Source of the DNA: a phage
Length of the DNA: 64,000 nucleotides
Assembly: GCA_024571205.1 (NCBI GenBank)
Contig: GCA_024571205.1_4523.1
Direction: 5' to 3' (one strand)
Shown here: positions 26,740 to 39,520 of the stretch, piece by piece
Layout of the letters: every line of letters starts with the position of its first letter
Position numbering within the stretch: position 1 is the stretch's first letter
Notes under the pieces: generated by a model
Databases searched by the model: none
What the model was told of the DNA's origin: nothing
What the model saw: only the letters and a program-made list of their open reading frames with translations
Program-made: the position numbers and the translations under genes

Positions 26740-27825
<1,086 letters not shown>

Positions 27826-27826
<1 letters not shown>

Positions 27827-28920: not shown

Positions 28921-29913
28921 ATGTTACCTGTTGTCGGAAAACTTATTTCTCCAAAAGAACTGGCTGAGATTATTCCTTTGTCGGAAGCTTACGCATCACA
29001 AGTGGCTTCTCATCGCGAACAAGTTAATTCGATTATGAATGGTGAAGACCCACGCAAACTTATTGTTGTAGGTCCTTGTTCAATTCATGACCCTATTGCT
29101 GCTGTTGAATACGGCAAACGTCTGGCTGAACTTCAAACTCGTCTTCCTAATGTTCTGTTAGTGATGCGCGTTTATTTTGAAAAGCCTCGAACTACCGTAG
29201 GTTGGAAAGGTCTTGTAAATGATCCATATCTTGACGGAAGTTTTGATATGAACCACGGTCTTATAGTTGCACGAACATTGTGTCGTAAACTTCTACGTAT
29301 GGGACTTCCATTAGCAACTGAAGTATTAGACCCATTCACGATTAAGTATCTTTCTGGTATTTTCTCATGGGTTGCTATTGGCGCCCGTACGACTGAAAGT
29401 CAGACACATCGTGAAATTGCTTCAGGTCTACCGATGTGCGTAGGCTTCAAGAACGCAACCAATGGTTCTATTAAAGTAGCTACAGACGCGATGTATAGTG
29501 CCGCCTGGCCTCATCGGTATATTGGTATGGACGTCGATGGTACTGTAGGCATTGTTGAAGCTGAAGGTAATCAGAATACGCATATCGTATTGCGTGGCGG
29601 GACCAACGGCCCGAACTATCATTCTTCTGATATTCAAGAAGCTTCTAACAAAGCAAGGGCAGTAGGTCTGAATCATTATGTAATGGTTGACTGTAGCCAT
29701 GCAAACGCTGAAGGGCATTATAGCAATCAAATTGGTATTGGTAAAAATTTAGCAGCTAATGATTTGGTCAAAGGAATTATGATAGAATCGTTCCTACATG
29801 AAGGAAATCAAAAAATTTCTGATAATATGTCCTATGGCGTTTCCGTTACCGATGCGTGCATCAGTTGGGAACAAACTAAAGAGCTGTTAACTTATATTAA
29901 TAAGGTTCAATAA
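28921..29913 (+). CDS. 3-deoxy-D-arabino-heptulosonate-7-phosphate (DAHP) synthase, class I alpha (AroG/AroF/AroH-like)
   Basis: 330 aa with the hallmark motifs LIVVGPCSIHDP, FEKPRTTVGWKGLVNDP, IGARTTESQ, CVGFKNATNGS, VDCSHANAEG, ESFLHEGNQ, TDACISWEQT, colinear with E. coli AroG as recalled. Confidence 0.85.
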   Translation: MLPVVGKLISPKELAEIIPLSEAYASQVASHREQVNSIMNGEDPRKLIVVGPCSIHDPIAAVEYGKRLAELQTRLPNVLLVMRVYFEKPRTTVGWKGLVNDPYLDGSFDMNHGLIVARTLCRKLLRMGLPLATEVLDPFTIKYLSGIFSWVAIGARTTESQTHREIASGLPMCVGFKNATNGSIKVATDAMYSAAWPHRYIGMDVDGTVGIVEAEGNQNTHIVLRGGTNGPNYHSSDIQEASNKARAVGLNHYVMVDCSHANAEGHYSNQIGIGKNLAANDLVKGIMIESFLHEGNQKISDNMSYGVSVTDACISWEQTKELLTYINKVQ

Positions 29914-33044: not shown

Positions 33045-33079
33045 ATTAATTGGGAGCTTCGGCTCCCAGTGAGGAAATT

Positions 33080-33694
33080 ATGTTTAAAGTTAATACTTTT
33101 TATAAAATGAATTTTAAAAATGGGGATATTACTCCACGCCTTAAAAACATGTTCTCATATGACCTTATCGAGCCTTTTGAAGTTTTAGAAGTTACTGATG
33201 CTGGCTCGGTTTGTGAAATTAGAACTTCTGAAGGTAAAATTTATCAGGCAGGTGTTGGTAAATTCAGTAATTGTTTTACTTTAATATTCTCGACCGATTT
33301 AGATGAGCATTTTATTGAATGTCCTAACCCTAAGGTCTATGAAGTTCCACATCAAGAAATTAAGAAAAATGGCCCGCACGAATATACGAAGGTTGAAACT
33401 CCTCACGGCGTGATGTGGCGTCATAACTCTCCTTTTGGAAGTAAAGGAACATTTGCTCAACCGTCTAAACCGTATGACGATGAAAAATACATCGTCGTCT
33501 TTTTATCTGAACAGGGTACTCAAGACCGTGGATGCCAACGTTCCGGATTATTGAGTGAACTCGAAGCTCATAACCAAGCACGTGAATTCGTTGAGAAAAA
33601 TCCTGGTTCTGAAGCTCTAGTCATGAAAGCAATTACTCAATATATCACTGCTCAACCTGTTGTTCATCCGGTGGAAATTAATTTCGTTAAGTAG
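33080..33694 (+). CDS. hypothetical protein
   Basis: 204 aa from ATG 33080 (SD gagg); the track start at 33050 lies inside a hairpin (33052-33067). Confidence 0.55.
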   Translation: MFKVNTFYKMNFKNGDITPRLKNMFSYDLIEPFEVLEVTDAGSVCEIRTSEGKIYQAGVGKFSNCFTLIFSTDLDEHFIECPNPKVYEVPHQEIKKNGPHEYTKVETPHGVMWRHNSPFGSKGTFAQPSKPYDDEKYIVVFLSEQGTQDRGCQRSGLLSELEAHNQAREFVEKNPGSEALVMKAITQYITAQPVVHPVEINFVK

Positions 33695-33724
33695 TTTACA
33701 TCCAAGGACGGATTAGAGTATAAT
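33694..33724 (+). promoter_or_regulatory. T4-type early promoter
   Basis: GTTTACA -35, 18-nt spacer, TATAAT -10. Confidence 0.45.
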
Positions 33725-33748: not shown

Positions 33749-33946
33749 ATGAAATTTTTAATAGCACAAACAGTCCAATTAAAAGGTGTTGGAATCCCTG
33801 GGATGATTTTTAAAGTTCTCCATGAATTTAAAACCGCCGCCGTAATTATCAATGAAGCGTATGCTGTTCAATGGGTTGATGGGACTTCTGACATACGTAT
33901 GGGTAAAGAGTTATCTCCTATTAAAGGGTTGAAACATGTTGAATAA
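33749..33946 (+). CDS. hypothetical protein
   Basis: 65 aa ORF after early promoter 33694-33724. Confidence 0.4.
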   Translation: MKFLIAQTVQLKGVGIPGMIFKVLHEFKTAAVIINEAYAVQWVDGTSDIRMGKELSPIKGLKHVE

Positions 33947-34148
33947 ACTAATCCAGAAATTGTTTGGTACAGAAATGATCGAAGTTACTTATCGTGTAAC
34001 TGACTGCTCGCCTATTCATCCACAGGATGAACCGTTTATCAAGACAATTAAAATGCTTAAAAATGACGGTGGTTTATCTATTGAAGACCGTCTGCCTAGT
34101 TACGGCCATTGGGCTGATGTTGAAATTATAAGTGTTAAAGATGTCTGA
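33936..34148 (+). CDS. hypothetical protein
   Basis: 70 aa ORF. Confidence 0.45.
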   Translation: MLNKLIQKLFGTEMIEVTYRVTDCSPIHPQDEPFIKTIKMLKNDGGLSIEDRLPSYGHWADVEIISVKDV

Positions 34149-34599
34149 ATTAGAAATAAGAAGTAATTTCAAGTGGCCGTCATGTGCATTAAGTAACTTT
34201 GCTCAATGGCCTTTTGTTATGGATGGTATTCAATTCGGAGGTCTTGAAGGATTTCTCCAAGGATGTAAGGTGAAAAATGTTGAACAACAAAGACGTATAT
34301 TTGGGTTGTCTGGATTGGCTGCACAGCAAGCTGGAAGGTCTTATGCAAGAGCTCAGGACCGTGGAACTCTCTTCTGGTTAGGAGTTCCGTTTTCAAGATA
34401 CTCCGAAGCGTGGAAAGAATTATACACAAATGCATATTTTGAAGCCGCGATCCAAAATAAGGGGTTTCGTGATGCCTTACAAGCCTCTAAAGGAAAAATT
34501 TTGAAGCACAGCATGGCTAGCCACCTAACAAAAGATGATACAATACTAACTGAAGCTGAATTTATTGATGTGTTAAACCTATTAAGAGACTCTTTATGA
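34141..34599 (+). CDS. NADAR (YbiA-like) domain protein
   Basis: 152 aa from ATG 34141; ...SNFAQWPFVMDGIQFGGLEGFLQGCK... pattern resembles the NADAR/DUF1768 family; T4 30.3-like position. Confidence 0.6.
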   Translation: MSELEIRSNFKWPSCALSNFAQWPFVMDGIQFGGLEGFLQGCKVKNVEQQRRIFGLSGLAAQQAGRSYARAQDRGTLFWLGVPFSRYSEAWKELYTNAYFEAAIQNKGFRDALQASKGKILKHSMASHLTKDDTILTEAEFIDVLNLLRDSL

Positions 34600-35420
34600 A
34601 GCCTACTATTTTGACTGATATTGATGGTGTATGTTTAAGTTGGCAATCCGGACTTCCTTATTTTGCCCAAAAATATAATCTTCCATTAGAACATATTTTA
34701 AAAATGATTCAGGACGAAAAATTTATTTCTCCTGGTAAACTATTCAATACCGACGATAACCTTGGTAAACAATTAATAGAAAAATATAATAGCTCTGATT
34801 TTATTCGTTACTTAGCGCCTTATTCAGATGCTCTTCGAGTTATCAATAAACTAAAAGAAGACTATAATTTTGTAGCCGTGACGGCGCTAGGTGATTCAAT
34901 TGATGCTCGATTGAATAGACAATTTAATTTGAATGCTTTGTTCCCAGGCGCTTTCTCTGAAGTAATGATGTGTGGTCATGATTCTTCAAAGGAACAATTA
35001 TTCGAACTAGCTAAAACAAAATATAACGTGATTTGTTACGTTGACGATTTAGCTCATCACTGTGACCATGCGGCAGAAATTCTTAATGTACCGATTTATT
35101 GGTTGGCTCGTGGTGAACGTGATGATATTCCTCGCACTGCACAACGTGTACACACGTGGGATGATATTGAATCTCGATTGGTTCCGCCAGAGCATAATTC
35201 AAATTCAGATCGTGAAGACCTTTTAAAACGATTGGCCGATTTGCTTAAAGAATCTGGTGCAACAAGTCCAGGTGCACGGCCTAATCAAATTGGTGGCCCC
35301 TCGACAACACGTACTCCATATACCTGGCGAACCCCAGGACCAACCGATATGCAGCCATGGTGGACGATTCAAAACTTTCCTTTAGATTCGTCTAAATGGA
35401 CTTGGTCTATAAATTGTTAA
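34596..35420 (+). CDS. HAD-superfamily hydrolase-like protein
   Basis: 274 aa, N-terminal ILTDIDGVCLSW (HAD motif I, DxDG) and a later ...VDDL... motif; T4 30.2-like position. Confidence 0.6.
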   Translation: MKPTILTDIDGVCLSWQSGLPYFAQKYNLPLEHILKMIQDEKFISPGKLFNTDDNLGKQLIEKYNSSDFIRYLAPYSDALRVINKLKEDYNFVAVTALGDSIDARLNRQFNLNALFPGAFSEVMMCGHDSSKEQLFELAKTKYNVICYVDDLAHHCDHAAEILNVPIYWLARGERDDIPRTAQRVHTWDDIESRLVPPEHNSNSDREDLLKRLADLLKESGATSPGARPNQIGGPSTTRTPYTWRTPGPTDMQPWWTIQNFPLDSSKWTWSINC

Positions 35421-35429
35421 GGGCTAATT

Positions 35430-35699
35430 ATGTTTGTAGTTCATGATATTACAGATGGCAAAAACACCACACGTGACTACGGCCATGTTAACATGTTCTT
35501 TCGAGACTGGCCGGTGTTTCGTTCAGTAAAAGACGCAGAAATATTTAAAGAGTGTGTTGAACAAGGGTTCATCTACATTTCAGAATATTATGTTGAAGGA
35601 CTCGGTAAATGGATTACCACTTATCAGAAAACGCTGAAATCGCTTCTAGATGAAGTGGCTTATAATAGAACCATAACCAAAATCGAGGATATCAAATGA
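35430..35699 (+). CDS. hypothetical protein
   Basis: 89 aa ORF directly upstream of the ligase gene. Confidence 0.5.
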   Translation: MFVVHDITDGKNTTRDYGHVNMFFRDWPVFRSVKDAEIFKECVEQGFIYISEYYVEGLGKWITTYQKTLKSLLDEVAYNRTITKIEDIK

Positions 35700-37189
35700 T
35701 TTTAGATATTTTAAACCAAATAGCTGCGATCGGTTCTACTAAAACAAAACAGGAAATCCTTAAGAAAAATAAGGACAACAAATTACTTGAACGTGTGTAT
35801 CGTTTAACGTATGCACGTGGTATCCAGTATTATATTAAGAAATGGCCTGGGCCAGGTGAAAGGTCTCAAGCGTATGGTCTTCTTGAATTAGATGACATGT
35901 TGGATTTTATTGAGTTCACATTAGCCACTCGTAAACTCACTGGTAATGCTGCAATTAAAGAGCTCATGGGTTATATCGCTGACGGTAAACCTGATGATGT
36001 AGAAGTCCTTCGTCGTGTAATGATGCGCGACCTTGAAGTAGGTGCTTCAGTGTCTATCGCGAATAAGGTGTGGCCTGGACTTATTCAATTGCAACCACAG
36101 ATGTTAGCATCTGCATATGATGAGAAATTGATTACTAAAAATATTAAATGGCCGGCATTCGCCCAATTAAAAGCAGATGGTGCTCGTTGTTTCGCTGAAG
36201 TTCGTGATGATGGTGTTCAATTCTTTTCTCGTGCTGGTAACGAATACCATGGTCTTACTCTATTAGCGGATGAACTAATGGAAATGACTAAAGAAGCCCG
36301 TGAAAGACACCCTAATGGGGTTTTAATCGACGGCGAATTAGTTTATCATTCATTTGATATTAAAAAGGCTGTGAGCTCAGGAAATGACCTGTCGTTCTTA
36401 TTTGGCGATAATGAAGAATCCGAAGAAGTACAAGTTGCAGACCGTAGCACTTCAAACGGTTTAGCAAATAAATCTCTTCAAGGGACTATTTCTCCTAAAG
36501 AAGCGGAAGGTATGGTTCTTCAAGCCTGGGACTATGTTCCTTTAGATGAAGTCTATTCTGATGGCAAAATTAAAGGTCAGAAATACGATGTTCGTTTTGC
36601 TGCTCTTGAAAATATGGCTGAAGGCTTTAAGCGAATTGAGCCAATTGAAAATCAGTTAGTTCGTAATCTTGACGAAGCTAAAGTGGTTTATAAAAAATAT
36701 GTTGACCAAGGTCTTGAAGGTATTATCCTTAAAAACCGTGATTCATATTGGGAAAACAAACGCTCTAAGAACCTAATTAAATTTAAAGAAGTTATTGATA
36801 TCGCTTTAGAAGTTGTAGGATACTATGAACACTCTAAAGACCCTAACAAATTAGGTGGTGTCGAACTCGTATCACGTTGTCGTCGTATTACAACCGATTG
36901 TGGTTCAGGGTTTAAAGATACAACTCATAAAACAGTTGATGGTGTAAAGATTCTTATTCCTTTAGATGAGCGTCATGATTTAGACCGTGAACGATTAATG
37001 GCTGAAGCTCGTGAAGGTAAATTGATTGGACGTATTGCTGATTGCGAATGTAATGGTTGGGTTCATTCTAAAGGCCGTGAAGGTACTGTAGGTATTTTCC
37101 TTCCAATTATTAAAGGGTTCCGTTTTGATAAAACAGAAGCGGATTCATTTGAAGACGTATTTGGACCGTGGTCCCAGACAGGTTTATAA
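35696..37189 (+). CDS. 30: ATP-dependent DNA ligase
   Basis: 497 aa, MILDILNQIAAIGSTKTKQEILKKNKDNKLLERVYRLTYARGIQYYIKKWPG and active-site region FAQLKADGARCFAEV (lysine motif KxDG), matches T4 ligase. Confidence 0.93.
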   Translation: MILDILNQIAAIGSTKTKQEILKKNKDNKLLERVYRLTYARGIQYYIKKWPGPGERSQAYGLLELDDMLDFIEFTLATRKLTGNAAIKELMGYIADGKPDDVEVLRRVMMRDLEVGASVSIANKVWPGLIQLQPQMLASAYDEKLITKNIKWPAFAQLKADGARCFAEVRDDGVQFFSRAGNEYHGLTLLADELMEMTKEARERHPNGVLIDGELVYHSFDIKKAVSSGNDLSFLFGDNEESEEVQVADRSTSNGLANKSLQGTISPKEAEGMVLQAWDYVPLDEVYSDGKIKGQKYDVRFAALENMAEGFKRIEPIENQLVRNLDEAKVVYKKYVDQGLEGIILKNRDSYWENKRSKNLIKFKEVIDIALEVVGYYEHSKDPNKLGGVELVSRCRRITTDCGSGFKDTTHKTVDGVKILIPLDERHDLDRERLMAEAREGKLIGRIADCECNGWVHSKGREGTVGIFLPIIKGFRFDKTEADSFEDVFGPWSQTGL

Positions 37190-37432: not shown

Positions 37433-39520
37433 ATGTCTGAACAATTAAATGAAGTGTTTGAATCTGAAGGCAGTCTTCCTGTCGTCAATTTGAACCCTAA
37501 AGCTAAAGTTCCACAAGTCTGGAAAATTGGTGATATCGATACAAACATCGTAGTCCGTTTATTCTCTTACCTTTCCGAAGGCGATGCTGTAAAACAAGTT
37601 AAACTTGGTGACAAATACGCTCATGTCGTTATTATGAGTCTGTCTGAAAAGGGTAATCTCGCTGAATTGAAAAATGGCCTTGGTCCTGCTCCTATTGATG
37701 CAATCAACACCATTTTCAATACAGTGTATGAACAGGTTAAAGCTCTTCGTATGGATGCAGTTCTGTTCCGATTTCCTACCAAGAAATTGAAAGGACGTGG
37801 ACAACAACTTCAAACTCTTCTTGCTCGTTTAGTTTCTACTAAAACTGGTGGTCGTTTTAAAGTATTGTCTGCAATGTATCAATTCACAGGTAAACACACA
37901 TATGTGATGATGGTTCGTAAAAATGCCAACATTGAAGATATTAAAGGCATCCCTAACATTAACACAGAGTTGTACACGAAAGTAGATTCTGATGTTGGTG
38001 AAGTTTATGTGAGTAAAAAGACTGGCGAAAAGGTCACCAAAGAAACGGCTATCGCTGGTTCTATTGCTGCTGTAGAAGAAAAACGTAAAGATAAGCCTGT
38101 TATTGCTCGTACTAAAATTTCTCGTCGCGCTATTGCCGCAAGTCAATCTTTAGAAGCTGACCGCCAAGAAGGTGAGCTATTCCAGAAATACGAAAATTCT
38201 GCTAAAGAAGTTAGTGGCCCAGCTACAGCTGAATTACTTCCTGAAGCATATGAAATCGTACTAGCCCAAGCATCGTCTACAGCAAAAGGCACCCTAGTTG
38301 CTGATATCGAAAATAAGATTTATAATCGTATTGATGAATCCTTTAGATTTGCTGATGAAGTTTCTTATGGTAGTGTTATTAAGCCGACTTTAGAAAAGTT
38401 TGCTAAGAAAATTAAAACTGAAAAAACAACATCTGTTAAAGCATTAGCTGCTTTTGTTGAAGCTGCAAACGAAATTGCAGACTCTATTAGAGACGAATGG
38501 TTTGAAGATTTTAGACGAGATAATTTCCAACTGGCTGATGACGTTTTAGCTGAAGTATCTGAAAAAACTTGGAAACAACGTAAATCAGCGTTCTTGTCTA
38601 ATGTGATGTATACTTATGCACGAGAATCGGCCAGAGGCACCTTTAATATAACAATGAATCGGGACCCTAAACAATACTCTGTTGCTGAAAAACGAGCTAT
38701 TCGTGAATATGCCTCTTCTGCATATACCGATATCAATAATATGTTGTTAGGTCGTTATAAACCGGATTTTTATGATGTTGCAGATGAAGATGAAGTTAAA
38801 CGCGCTATTGATGGTCTTGATTCGGCGTTTTTAAATGGAGACCGTTTACCTGAAGGACTAACGTTGTATAGAGCTCAGTCTATCAGAATGCCTATTTACG
38901 AAGCAATGGTTAAAAATAAGGTATTCTACTTCAGAAACTATGTTTCTACTTCACTAGCTCCTATTATTTTCGGCGGGTTTAAAGAGAACGTTGCCCTTGG
39001 ACTTGCTCCTGAAGAAGTTCGCAAAGAGCTTAACATTGACAATAATGACGAAGGTGTTACTATTTCTCCTAGTCAAGTAAGAACAGCTATGCATGCACCA
39101 GAACAAATCCGTGTTAACGTTGGATGGGCTATTGATGGCGCCCATAAAGTTAACGTGATTTATCCAGGACAGTTGAGTAATCACCCTAATGAGCAAGAAA
39201 TTATTTTGCCTAGAGGCATTCTCTTGCAGATAAATAAAATTACAGATGCGTCATCTGACACTGGTGCAGGTTTAGAATCCAACCTTAAATTTATTCAAGC
39301 TGAAGTCATGTCCTCAGACCAGTTGGATGAAGCGGTCATTTACGATGGTGATGTTCTCATGGAAACAGGCGAGGTGGTTGCTATGACGGGTGAAATCGAA
39401 TCGGATGAGCCGGTATCATTCTCTTCATTTGTAGAAAAAACTAGTGCACCTAAAGGTTTGAAATTGTTAGCATCTTTAATGGATTTAGAATCGATTCCGT
39501 TTAAATTTGTTCAAGGATAG
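37433..39520 (+). CDS. alt: Alt ADP-ribosyltransferase (virion-packaged)
   Basis: 695 aa; C-terminal region ...VFYFRNYVSTSL...EVMSSDQLDEAVIYDGDVLMETGEVVAMTGEIE... matches T4 Alt as recalled; location before gene 54. Confidence 0.88.
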   Translation: MSEQLNEVFESEGSLPVVNLNPKAKVPQVWKIGDIDTNIVVRLFSYLSEGDAVKQVKLGDKYAHVVIMSLSEKGNLAELKNGLGPAPIDAINTIFNTVYEQVKALRMDAVLFRFPTKKLKGRGQQLQTLLARLVSTKTGGRFKVLSAMYQFTGKHTYVMMVRKNANIEDIKGIPNINTELYTKVDSDVGEVYVSKKTGEKVTKETAIAGSIAAVEEKRKDKPVIARTKISRRAIAASQSLEADRQEGELFQKYENSAKEVSGPATAELLPEAYEIVLAQASSTAKGTLVADIENKIYNRIDESFRFADEVSYGSVIKPTLEKFAKKIKTEKTTSVKALAAFVEAANEIADSIRDEWFEDFRRDNFQLADDVLAEVSEKTWKQRKSAFLSNVMYTYARESARGTFNITMNRDPKQYSVAEKRAIREYASSAYTDINNMLLGRYKPDFYDVADEDEVKRAIDGLDSAFLNGDRLPEGLTLYRAQSIRMPIYEAMVKNKVFYFRNYVSTSLAPIIFGGFKENVALGLAPEEVRKELNIDNNDEGVTISPSQVRTAMHAPEQIRVNVGWAIDGAHKVNVIYPGQLSNHPNEQEIILPRGILLQINKITDASSDTGAGLESNLKFIQAEVMSSDQLDEAVIYDGDVLMETGEVVAMTGEIESDEPVSFSSFVEKTSAPKGLKLLASLMDLESIPFKFVQG

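What the first reader, a model, noticed from the sequence alone, without database searches (positions are those of the whole stretch)
34141..35420. NADAR-domain protein and HAD-type hydrolase adjacent to DNA ligase, downstream of a variable ORF block
Seen in sequence: ORF 34141-34599 has the NADAR/YbiA-like pattern (SNFAQWPF..DG..F...E..LQ) and ORF 34596-35420 starts with a HAD motif I (DIDGV). From established knowledge NADAR enzymes have been reported to remove ADP-ribose from guanine in DNA, reversing DarT-type toxin modification, so a phage NADAR is a plausible counter-defence or DNA-repair factor. Inference: with ligase and the HAD phosphatase this may form a nucleic-acid repair module. 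The Alt ADP-ribosyltransferase lies a few kb downstream.
Basis: partly seen in the sequence, partly recalled or inferred. Interest (0 to 1): 0.45.

Follow-up and report, generated by a model that had tools for sequence, protein, structure and literature searches.

The report
Known phage anti-DarT enzyme AdfN
The first gene is an intact copy of T4 gene 30.3 (AdfN), an enzyme already shown by experiment to strip ADP-ribose from phage DNA and defeat the bacterial DarTG1 defence. Its neighbour is a real but uncharacterised HAD-type phosphatase that published T4 data show is not needed for that job.

Summary
The window comes from an RB69-like T-even phage (Mosigvirus). ORF 34141-34599 is gp30.3, also called AdfN: Pfam PF08010 E=1.8e-69, 97% identical to T4 AdfN. 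The model is confident (pLDDT 94), and its only confident PDB matches are the three solved NADAR structures. Catalytic E36 and K43 and the clade-specific H123 are present. The RB69 frameshift that inactivates the gene is absent.

T4 AdfN has already been shown to be a guanine-ADP-ribose DNA glycohydrolase that is necessary and sufficient against DarTG1 (PMC11825919, PMC11125620).

The proposed NADAR+HAD+ligase repair module is not supported:
- In a T4 transposon screen under DarTG1, gene 30.3 is lost (log2FC -7.25), while 30.2 (-0.12), 30.1 and alt are unaffected.
- NADAR-HAD adjacency is confined to a few T4-like lineages, whereas gp30.2 stays next to the ligase wherever it was found.
- Removing ADP-ribose from a base leaves no nick or phosphate to repair.

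Verdict: real, correctly recognised, already known. Interest is low.

The parts
34141..34599 (+). gene 30.3 = adfN: phage-type NADAR DNA ADP-ribosylglycohydrolase, full-length allele (152 aa)
   Evidence: PF08010 E=1.8e-69. 97% identical to T4 gp30.3, with E36 and K43 present. No RB69-type T insertion at nt 411. AF2 pLDDT 94.3. The only confident PDB fold hits are YbiA 2b3w, PnNADAR 8bau and GlNADAR 8bat. E36, K43 and H123 are invariant in 51 homologues.
34596..35420 (+). gene 30.2: divergent C1-capped HAD-superfamily phosphatase-like protein (core about residues 1-195, helix 203-219, disordered Trp/Pro-rich tail 223-274); substrate unknown
33936..34148 (+). gene 30.4 (70 aa, function unknown); its stop codon overlaps the adfN start codon
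   Evidence: phrog_2042 E=1.3e-34. 49% identical to T4 gp30.4. Overlap read from the sequence. T4 insertions in 30.4 are depleted under DarTG1, log2FC -1.79, q=0.014.
33749..33946 (+). gene 30.5 (65 aa, function unknown), first gene of the overlapping 30.5-30.4-30.3-30.2 string
   Evidence: phrog_1690 E=8e-29; overlaps 30.4.
33695..33724 (+). sigma-70-like promoter candidate (TTTACA-18-TATAAT, 11 of 12) upstream of gene 30.5
   Evidence: Consensus scan. This is a pattern match only; the total number of such sites in the region is not clearly above the shuffled expectation.
35430..35699 (+). gene 30.1 (DUF3045), context
   Evidence: PF11243 E=2.4e-26.
35696..37189 (+). gene 30, ATP-dependent DNA ligase, context
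   Evidence: PF01068 E=2.3e-26; phrog_114 E=3e-155.
37433..39520 (+). alt, ADP-ribosyltransferase, context only
   Evidence: Annotated as alt in the syntenic phage 348Ecol098PP; 93% identical to RB69 Alt.

Best explanation
ORF 34141-34599 is an intact adfN (T4 gene 30.3). It encodes an early-expressed, stand-alone NADAR-fold enzyme that hydrolyses the N-glycosidic bond between ADP-ribose and guanine in phage DNA. That modification is made by the host toxin DarT1 of the DarTG1 defence system. Removing it restores replicable DNA and lets the phage grow on DarTG1-carrying hosts. Because this allele is full length, unlike the frameshifted RB69 allele, this Mosigvirus is predicted to be DarTG1-resistant. 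ORF 34596-35420 (gp30.2) is a separate enzyme: a capped HAD-superfamily phosphatase that most likely acts on a small phosphorylated metabolite or nucleotide. It is co-transcribed and translationally coupled with adfN in this lineage but is not part of the anti-DarTG1 mechanism. What is shown here: gene identity, fold, catalytic residues, intactness and synteny. What is shown in the literature for the T4 orthologue: enzymatic activity and the anti-DarTG1 phenotype. What is inferred: that this allele has the same activity, and that gp30.2 is a small-molecule phosphatase.
Against: No activity was measured for this allele. It differs from T4 AdfN at five positions (K11R, E89P, I120V, M125I, H128G, written window-to-T4), none of them catalytic. 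T4 AdfN does not rescue DarT1 toxicity in uninfected cells and only partly rescues non-T-even phages, so an unidentified T-even factor is involved. Its presence in this phage is assumed, not shown. For gp30.2, no curated HAD model reaches its threshold, the substrate class rests on cap architecture alone, and fold hits do not single out one HAD subfamily.
Confidence: 0.9

Rival explanations
1. AdfN, the HAD phosphatase gp30.2 and DNA ligase act together as a nucleic-acid repair module. AdfN would remove ADP-ribose, gp30.2 would clean up a phosphorylated intermediate, and the ligase would seal the DNA.
For: The genes are contiguous and on the same strand, and adfN and 30.2 overlap by ATGA. This arrangement is kept in all 13 close relatives with enough downstream flank. 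AdfN-T4 needs an unidentified T-even factor for full activity.
Against: In T4 Tn-seq under DarTG1, 30.2 (log2FC -0.12), 30.1 (-0.01) and alt (-0.01) are neutral while 30.3 is lost. Among 66 more distant gp30.3-type NADAR loci, only 7 have gp30.2 plus ligase within 5 kb. In Pectobacterium phage PM2 the two genes lie about 59 kb apart. By established chemistry, NADAR hydrolysis regenerates an intact guanine with no nick or terminal phosphate. gp30.2 has a C1 cap typical of small-molecule HADs, unlike the phage's own Pnkp 3'-phosphatase domain, which matches PF25109 at 26927-27826.
Confidence: 0.04
2. gp30.2 is a 5'(3')-deoxyribonucleotidase (NT5C-like) that shapes the nucleotide pool during infection.
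Confidence: 0.3
3. AdfN's main natural target is not DarT1-modified DNA but another ADP-ribosylated substrate, such as G-ADPr in RNA, products of other guanine-specific ADP-ribosyltransferases, or soluble ADP-ribose derivatives.
For: All NADAR families, including T4's, remove G-ADPr from RNA as well as DNA in vitro. The 2025 paper argues that a NADAR acts regardless of which toxin placed the modification. Earlier comparative genomics predicted soluble ADPr-derivative substrates for phage NADARs.
Against: The DarTG1 phenotype is strong and specific in two independent studies. AdfN has no effect on DarTG2. In the cytidine study's summary table, C-ADPr is listed as reversed by NADAR-family and YbiA-type enzymes, not by the phage NADAR.
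Confidence: 0.25

Closest known systems
AdfN (anti-DarT factor NADAR) = gp30.3 of Escherichia phage T4 (Johannesman et al. 2025, PMC11825919; Cihlova et al. 2024, PMC11125620)
   Same: Same gene at the same locus (30.4-30.3-30.2-30.1-30-alt), the same length of 152 aa, and 97% amino-acid identity. The same E36, K43 and H123 and the same C-terminal helix are present.
   Different: Five conservative or non-catalytic substitutions. The host genome is a Mosigvirus rather than a Tequatrovirus. No experiment has been done on this allele.
RB69 gp30.3 (natural loss-of-function adfN allele)
   Same: Same genus and 97% identity over the shared 137 residues.
   Different: RB69 carries a T insertion at nt 411 that truncates the last 15 residues and makes RB69 DarTG1-sensitive. 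The window lacks the insertion.
DarG1 antitoxin NADAR (Geobacter/Trichlorobacter lovleyi, PDB 8bat) and E. coli YbiA (2b3w)
   Same: Same NADAR/YbiA fold and the same Glu/Lys catalytic motif.
   Different: 16-20% identity. The phage protein is the bare core without DarG1's N-terminal extension, and it has His where DarG1 has Asp and YbiA has Glu in the last strand. It is an orphan gene with no linked toxin.
HAD superfamily, subfamily I (C1-capped) phosphatases, e.g. 5'(3')-deoxyribonucleotidases cdN/mdN (2jao, 2i7d, 1q92) and the S. epidermidis deoxyribonucleotidase-like protein 3bwv
   Same: gp30.2 shares the Rossmannoid HAD core, a helical cap inserted after motif I, and DxDxV, T, K and DD motifs.
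   Different: 10-19% identity. No curated HAD or NT5C model reaches its threshold. gp30.2 has an extra helix and a variable, disordered Trp/Pro-rich C-terminal tail. Its substrate is unknown.
T4 Pnkp (PseT) HAD-type DNA/RNA 3'-phosphatase domain
   Same: Both are HAD DxDxT/V phosphotransferases encoded by the same phage. Pnkp lies at 26927-27826.
   Different: Pnkp's phosphatase domain matches PF25109 (E=1.3e-58). gp30.2 does not match it and shows no pairwise similarity to Pnkp. gp30.2 carries a cap domain, which is generally associated with small-molecule rather than polymer substrates (established HAD classification).

Membership tests
NADAR superfamily, phage gp30.3/AdfN clade | Matches the curated family model (Pfam PF08010 Phage_30_3) above its gathering score | tested here: met
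   232.3 bits against a cut-off of 36, E=1.8e-69, covering 138 of 138 profile positions.
NADAR superfamily, phage gp30.3/AdfN clade | YbiA/NADAR fold (alpha-helical core flanked by small beta-sheets) | tested here: met
   AF2 pLDDT 94.3, pTM 0.89. Foldseek PDB hits: 2b3w E=1.5e-5, 8bau E=6e-3, 8bat E=3e-2, all with probability at least 0.99; nothing else scores below E=1.
NADAR superfamily, phage gp30.3/AdfN clade | Catalytic Glu and Lys (E36 and K43 in AdfN-T4) | tested here: met
   Present in the window protein and invariant in 51 homologues. They align with the YbiA E..K motif.
NADAR superfamily, phage gp30.3/AdfN clade | Histidine in the last strand where YbiA has Glu and DarG1 has Asp (phage-clade signature) | tested here: met
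   H123 is invariant in alignment A5. The signature is described in PMC11125620 and PMC11825919. Assignment of H123 to that position is by motif position (KHS in strand 120-122), not by structural superposition.
NADAR superfamily, phage gp30.3/AdfN clade | Intact C-terminal helix (needed for full activity; lost in RB69) | tested here: met
   Residues 138-152 are present and identical to T4. There is no T insertion at nt 411. The model has helix 138-151.
NADAR superfamily, phage gp30.3/AdfN clade | Hydrolyses guanine-ADP-ribose in DNA and confers resistance to DarTG1 | not testable with these tools
   Shown for the 97%-identical T4 protein and inferred for this allele.
HAD superfamily (gp30.2) | Rossmannoid HAD core fold | tested here: met
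HAD superfamily (gp30.2) | Motifs I (DxDxT/V), II (S/T), III (K/R) and IV (DD/ED) | tested here: met
   D8, D10 and K132 are invariant; T96 and D150-D151 are at least 90% conserved among 45 homologues. The second Asp marks the phosphatase type rather than the dehalogenase type (established HAD knowledge).
HAD superfamily (gp30.2) | Matches a curated HAD sequence model above threshold | tested here: not met
   HAD_2 scores 16 bits against 23.8. NCBIfam TIGR01428 scores 12.7 against 125.4. Only 5 of 45 relatives touch PF00702, at E of 1e-4 or weaker. The family is a divergent branch that current models do not capture.
5'(3')-deoxyribonucleotidase (NT5C, PF06941) | Sequence membership, and fold similarity that stands out from other HADs | tested here: inconclusive
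   The window protein has no NT5C hit; 3 of 45 relatives hit weakly (best E=0.003). The profile against 2jao gives E=0.15. Structural scores do not separate nucleotidases from other C1 HADs.
PNKP-type polynucleotide 3'-phosphatase | HAD_PNKP domain (PF25109) lacking a C1 cap, acting on nucleic-acid ends | tested here: not met
   gp30.2 has no PF25109 hit, while the phage's Pnkp does (E=1.3e-58). There is no pairwise similarity. gp30.2 has a helical cap at residues 16-72.
Proposed NADAR-HAD-ligase repair module | Components are jointly required for the phenotype and are co-inherited as a unit | tested here: not met
   T4 Tn-seq under DarTG1: 30.3 log2FC -7.25; 30.2 -0.12; 30.1 -0.01; alt -0.01. 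Only 7 of 66 distant NADAR loci keep gp30.2 plus ligase nearby. Ligase is essential, so it could not be scored.

The most novel reading that the evidence does not exclude
The unidentified T-even-specific factor that AdfN needs for full activity may be encoded in the same overlapping gene string. The best remaining candidate is the 70-aa gp30.4 (33936-34148), whose stop codon overlaps the adfN start. T4 transposon insertions in 30.4 are significantly depleted under DarTG1 (log2FC -1.79, q=0.014). gp30.2 is excluded by the same data set. A polar effect of insertions on the downstream adfN is the simpler explanation, and gp30.4 is only 49% conserved between T4 and this phage while AdfN is 97% conserved.
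Probability: 0.08. Interest if true: 0.45.

Novelty: already known. Interest (0 to 1): 0.12.

Why it matters
The locus marks this phage as carrying a working anti-DarTG1 counter-defence. That is useful for predicting host range: this phage should plate on DarTG1 hosts, unlike its relative RB69. It is also useful for annotation, because most of the closest database records still call the gene 'hypothetical protein', and ATK47 has no feature annotated at that position at all. It adds no new biology. Two questions stay open, and this sequence alone answers neither: what the conserved ligase-linked HAD phosphatase gp30.2 acts on, and which T-even factor potentiates AdfN.

Tried and rejected
1. Single-sequence search of gp30.3 against PDB sequences found nothing. 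A profile of 51 homologues was needed to reach YbiA.
2. I considered gp30.2 as the missing AdfN potentiator or as part of a repair module. I rejected this on the T4 HIDEN-SEQ DarTG1 table and on the lack of conserved linkage.
3. I considered gp30.2 as a Pnkp-like DNA 3'-phosphatase working with the ligase. I rejected this because it has no PF25109 match, it has a cap domain, and the phage has its own Pnkp.
4. I asked whether the 97% identity of AdfN to T4 reflects a recent transfer between genera. About 24% of codons with an identical amino acid still differ, similar to gp31, rIII and 30.7. The pattern therefore fits strong purifying selection rather than a very recent exchange.
5. PADLOC and NCBIfam scans of gp30.3, gp30.2 and gp30.1 gave nothing useful.
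6. Literature searches for 'gp30.2' found no paper, and '30.2' + 'bacteriophage T4' + 'HAD' returned no paper whose title or abstract bore on gp30.2's function (none was opened).
7. I tried to find the Mosigvirus alleles tested experimentally (Bas46, Bas47) among the top 60 DNA hits, but they were not listed.

Full report
**What the window is.** The 3.3 kb around the finding is 99.9% identical to Escherichia phages CCU7 and PECP20, and 97-98% identical to many RB69-like phages. One of these, 348Ecol098PP, is classified in its record as Straboviridae, Tevenvirinae, genus Mosigvirus. The local gene order is cd, 31, rIII, 30.9, 30.8, 30.7, a 214-aa ORF, 30.5, 30.4, 30.3, 30.2, 30.1, 30 (ligase), alt.1, alt. 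This is the T4 30-31 region.

**Observation.**
- ORF 34141-34599 (152 aa) matches Pfam PF08010 'Bacteriophage protein GP30.3' at E=1.8e-69 over the whole model. It contains the quoted SNFAQWPF..DG..E..LQ pattern.
- ORF 34596-35420 (274 aa) begins MKPTILTDIDGV. Its ATG overlaps the stop codon of 30.3 (ATGA), just as the stop of 30.4 overlaps the ATG of 30.3.

**Gene 30.3 is adfN, and it is intact.**
- The protein is 97% identical to T4 gp30.3 and to RB69 gp30.3 over their shared length.
- RB69 carries a T insertion at nt 411 that cuts off the last 15 residues. The window sequence, like T4, lacks this insertion and encodes the full C-terminal helix.
- A 51-sequence alignment of homologues down to 35% identity keeps E36, K43 and H123 invariant.
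- The AlphaFold2 model is confident (pLDDT 94.3). Its only confident PDB matches are the three solved NADAR structures: E. coli YbiA 2b3w, Phytophthora NADAR 8bau and Geobacter DarG1-type NADAR 8bat.
- The family profile also reaches YbiA by sequence across the catalytic motif (E=0.004).

**This biology is already published.**
- Cihlova et al. 2024 (PMC11125620) showed that T4 gp30.3 hydrolyses guanosine-ADP-ribose in DNA but not thymidine-ADP-ribose. They also described the phage-clade histidine.
- Johannesman et al. 2025 (PMC11825919) named the gene adfN and reported the following:
  - Deleting it makes T4 and T2 unable to plaque on DarTG1 hosts.
  - Ectopic AdfN-T4 fully rescues RB69.
  - E36A and K43A mutants and the RB69-like truncation are impaired.
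  - RB69 is sensitive precisely because of the frameshift.
- All other Tevenvirinae they tested are resistant, including Bas46 and Bas47, the closest RB69 relatives. The paper states that phages with full-length 30.3 are resistant and that RB69 is the only one with a truncated allele.
- An independent T4 transposon screen (HIDEN-SEQ, bioRxiv 10.1101/2025.11.20.689424) found 30.3 non-essential on K-12 but completely lost under DarTG1.
- A 2026 study again used the T4 phage NADAR and confirmed G-ADPr hydrolysis.

**Selection on adfN.** Against T4, adfN has 47 nucleotide differences but only 5 amino-acid differences. About 24% of its amino-acid-identical codons differ, similar to gp31, rIII and gp30.7. 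Its immediate neighbours are far more diverged: gp30.4 51%, gp30.2 73%, gp30.1 56%, ligase 67% and Alt 44% amino-acid identity. This fits strong purifying selection on a working enzyme rather than a very recent transfer.

**Gene 30.2 is a real but divergent HAD protein.**
- Sequence models barely see it. HAD_2 scores 16 bits against a cut-off of 23.8, and nothing in NCBIfam reaches threshold. Only a few relatives touch PF00702 or NT5C.
- The AlphaFold2 model has a confident core, with pLDDT above 90 through about residue 190.
- In 45 homologues, D8, D10 (motif I, DxDxV) and K132 (motif III) are invariant. T96 (motif II) and D150-D151 (motif IV) are at least 90% conserved. The second aspartate marks a phosphatase-type rather than a dehalogenase-type HAD.
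- A helical cap (residues 16-72) is inserted right after motif I. By the established HAD classification, this C1 architecture usually goes with small-molecule substrates.
- After the core come a helix (203-219) and a disordered Trp/Pro-rich tail. The tail varies strongly between phages and is missing in many homologues of about 200 aa.

**The 'repair module' inference fails.**
1. In the T4 DarTG1 transposon table, log2 fold changes are -7.25 (q=0) for 30.3, -0.12 (p=0.61) for 30.2, -0.01 for 30.1 and -0.01 for alt. gp30.2 is also non-essential, with 72 of 72 TA sites hit.
2. Linkage was tested on 80 IMG/VR loci carrying a gp30.3-type NADAR.
   - Fourteen are close relatives (at least 84% identical). 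The 13 of these with enough downstream flank all carry gp30.2 overlapping downstream.
   - Of the 66 more distant loci (38-47% identity), only 7 have gp30.2 plus ligase within 5 kb.
   - In Pectobacterium phage PM2 the NADAR and gp30.2 lie about 59 kb apart. The sampled Klebsiella-phage NADAR hits also lie at 37-157 kb rather than at one fixed place.
   - Wherever gp30.2 is found it sits directly upstream of the ligase, with or without 30.1. The conserved pairing is therefore HAD-ligase, not HAD-NADAR.
3. Removing ADP-ribose from guanine N2 regenerates the base and creates no nick or phosphate (established NADAR chemistry).
4. The phage already has a dedicated end-healing HAD phosphatase in Pnkp (26927-27826, PF25109 E=1.3e-58), to which gp30.2 shows no similarity.

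**What remains open.** AdfN-T4 does not protect uninfected cells from DarT1 and only partly rescues non-T-even phages, so an unknown T-even factor is postulated. gp30.2 is excluded as that factor. Gene 30.4, translationally coupled just upstream, is modestly but significantly depleted under DarTG1 (log2FC -1.79, q=0.014). This is most simply a polar effect on adfN, but it is not excluded as a genuine contribution. The substrate of gp30.2 and the reason for its conserved position next to the ligase are also unknown.

**Verdict.** The extended module hypothesis is contradicted by published genetic data and by comparative genomics. Novelty: already known. Interest: low.

Noticed in passing
window 33936-34148 (gene 30.4): In the T4 HIDEN-SEQ DarTG1 table, insertions in 30.4 are significantly depleted (log2FC -1.79, q=0.014), and 30.5 shows -3.0 (not significant). 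The 30.4 stop codon overlaps the adfN start. This is either a polar effect or a hint at the unidentified AdfN potentiator. gp30.4 is only 49% identical between T4 and this phage.
   Followed up: partly
window 33050-33694: A 214-aa ORF (phrog_17531, E=2.5e-146) occupies the position where T4 and RB69 have the 95-aa gp30.6. It shows no similarity to T4 gp30.6. It is part of the variable block upstream of adfN.
   Followed up: partly
window 28921-29913: A 330-aa DAHP synthase (PF00793, E=9e-75; first enzyme of the shikimate pathway) is encoded immediately upstream of dCMP deaminase. No such gene is annotated at this locus in T4 or RB69. It is annotated 'dAHP synthase, class 1' in phage 348Ecol098PP. 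It is an auxiliary metabolic gene worth a separate look.
   Followed up: partly
protein hits P0103-P0106, P0112-P0117, P0121, P0150, P0201: Many database proteins are truncated gp30.3 fragments. Some are fused to pieces of gp30.7 (PF06919), gp30.8 (PF06019) or PF11097. This suggests recurrent deletions across the 30.3-30.8 block that destroy adfN in some T-even phages, which should then be DarTG1-sensitive like RB69.
   Followed up: no
protein P0016: One gp30.2 homologue (302 aa) carries a DUF3045 (gp30.1) domain. It is either a possible natural fusion of genes 30.2 and 30.1, hinting that these two ligase-adjacent proteins work together, or a read-through or assembly artefact on a 1.4 kb contig.
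   Followed up: no
window 35190-35420 (gp30.2 residues about 197-274): The C-terminal tail of gp30.2 is disordered and rich in Trp and Pro. It differs almost completely between T4 and this phage except for a conserved TWRTPG motif, and many homologues lack the tail altogether. It may be a docking peptide.
   Followed up: no
window 33695-33724: A near-consensus sigma-70-like promoter (TTTACA-18-TATAAT, 11 of 12) lies just upstream of gene 30.5. It would drive the overlapping 30.5-30.4-adfN-30.2 string as an early transcript. This is a pattern match only.
   Followed up: no
phage records KF835987.1 (Pectobacterium PM2), NC_031087.1 and other Klebsiella phages: In Pectobacterium phage PM2 the gp30.3-type NADAR (72 kb) lies about 59 kb from gp30.2 (131 kb). 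In the sampled Klebsiella phages the NADAR hits fall at various coordinates (37-157 kb), and in one record (Roth20) the feature under the match is annotated as the anti-CBASS gene acb1. For the Klebsiella phages the two genes were not located in the same record.
   Followed up: no
phage record NC_055708.1 / KT184309.1 (ATK47): In Enterobacteria phage ATK47 neither adfN nor gene 30.2 is annotated: no feature is listed under matches that are 100% (adfN, DNA) and 97.4% (gp30.2, protein) identical. Most of the closest records label adfN 'hypothetical protein'. Public annotation lags behind the 2024-2025 literature.
   Followed up: no
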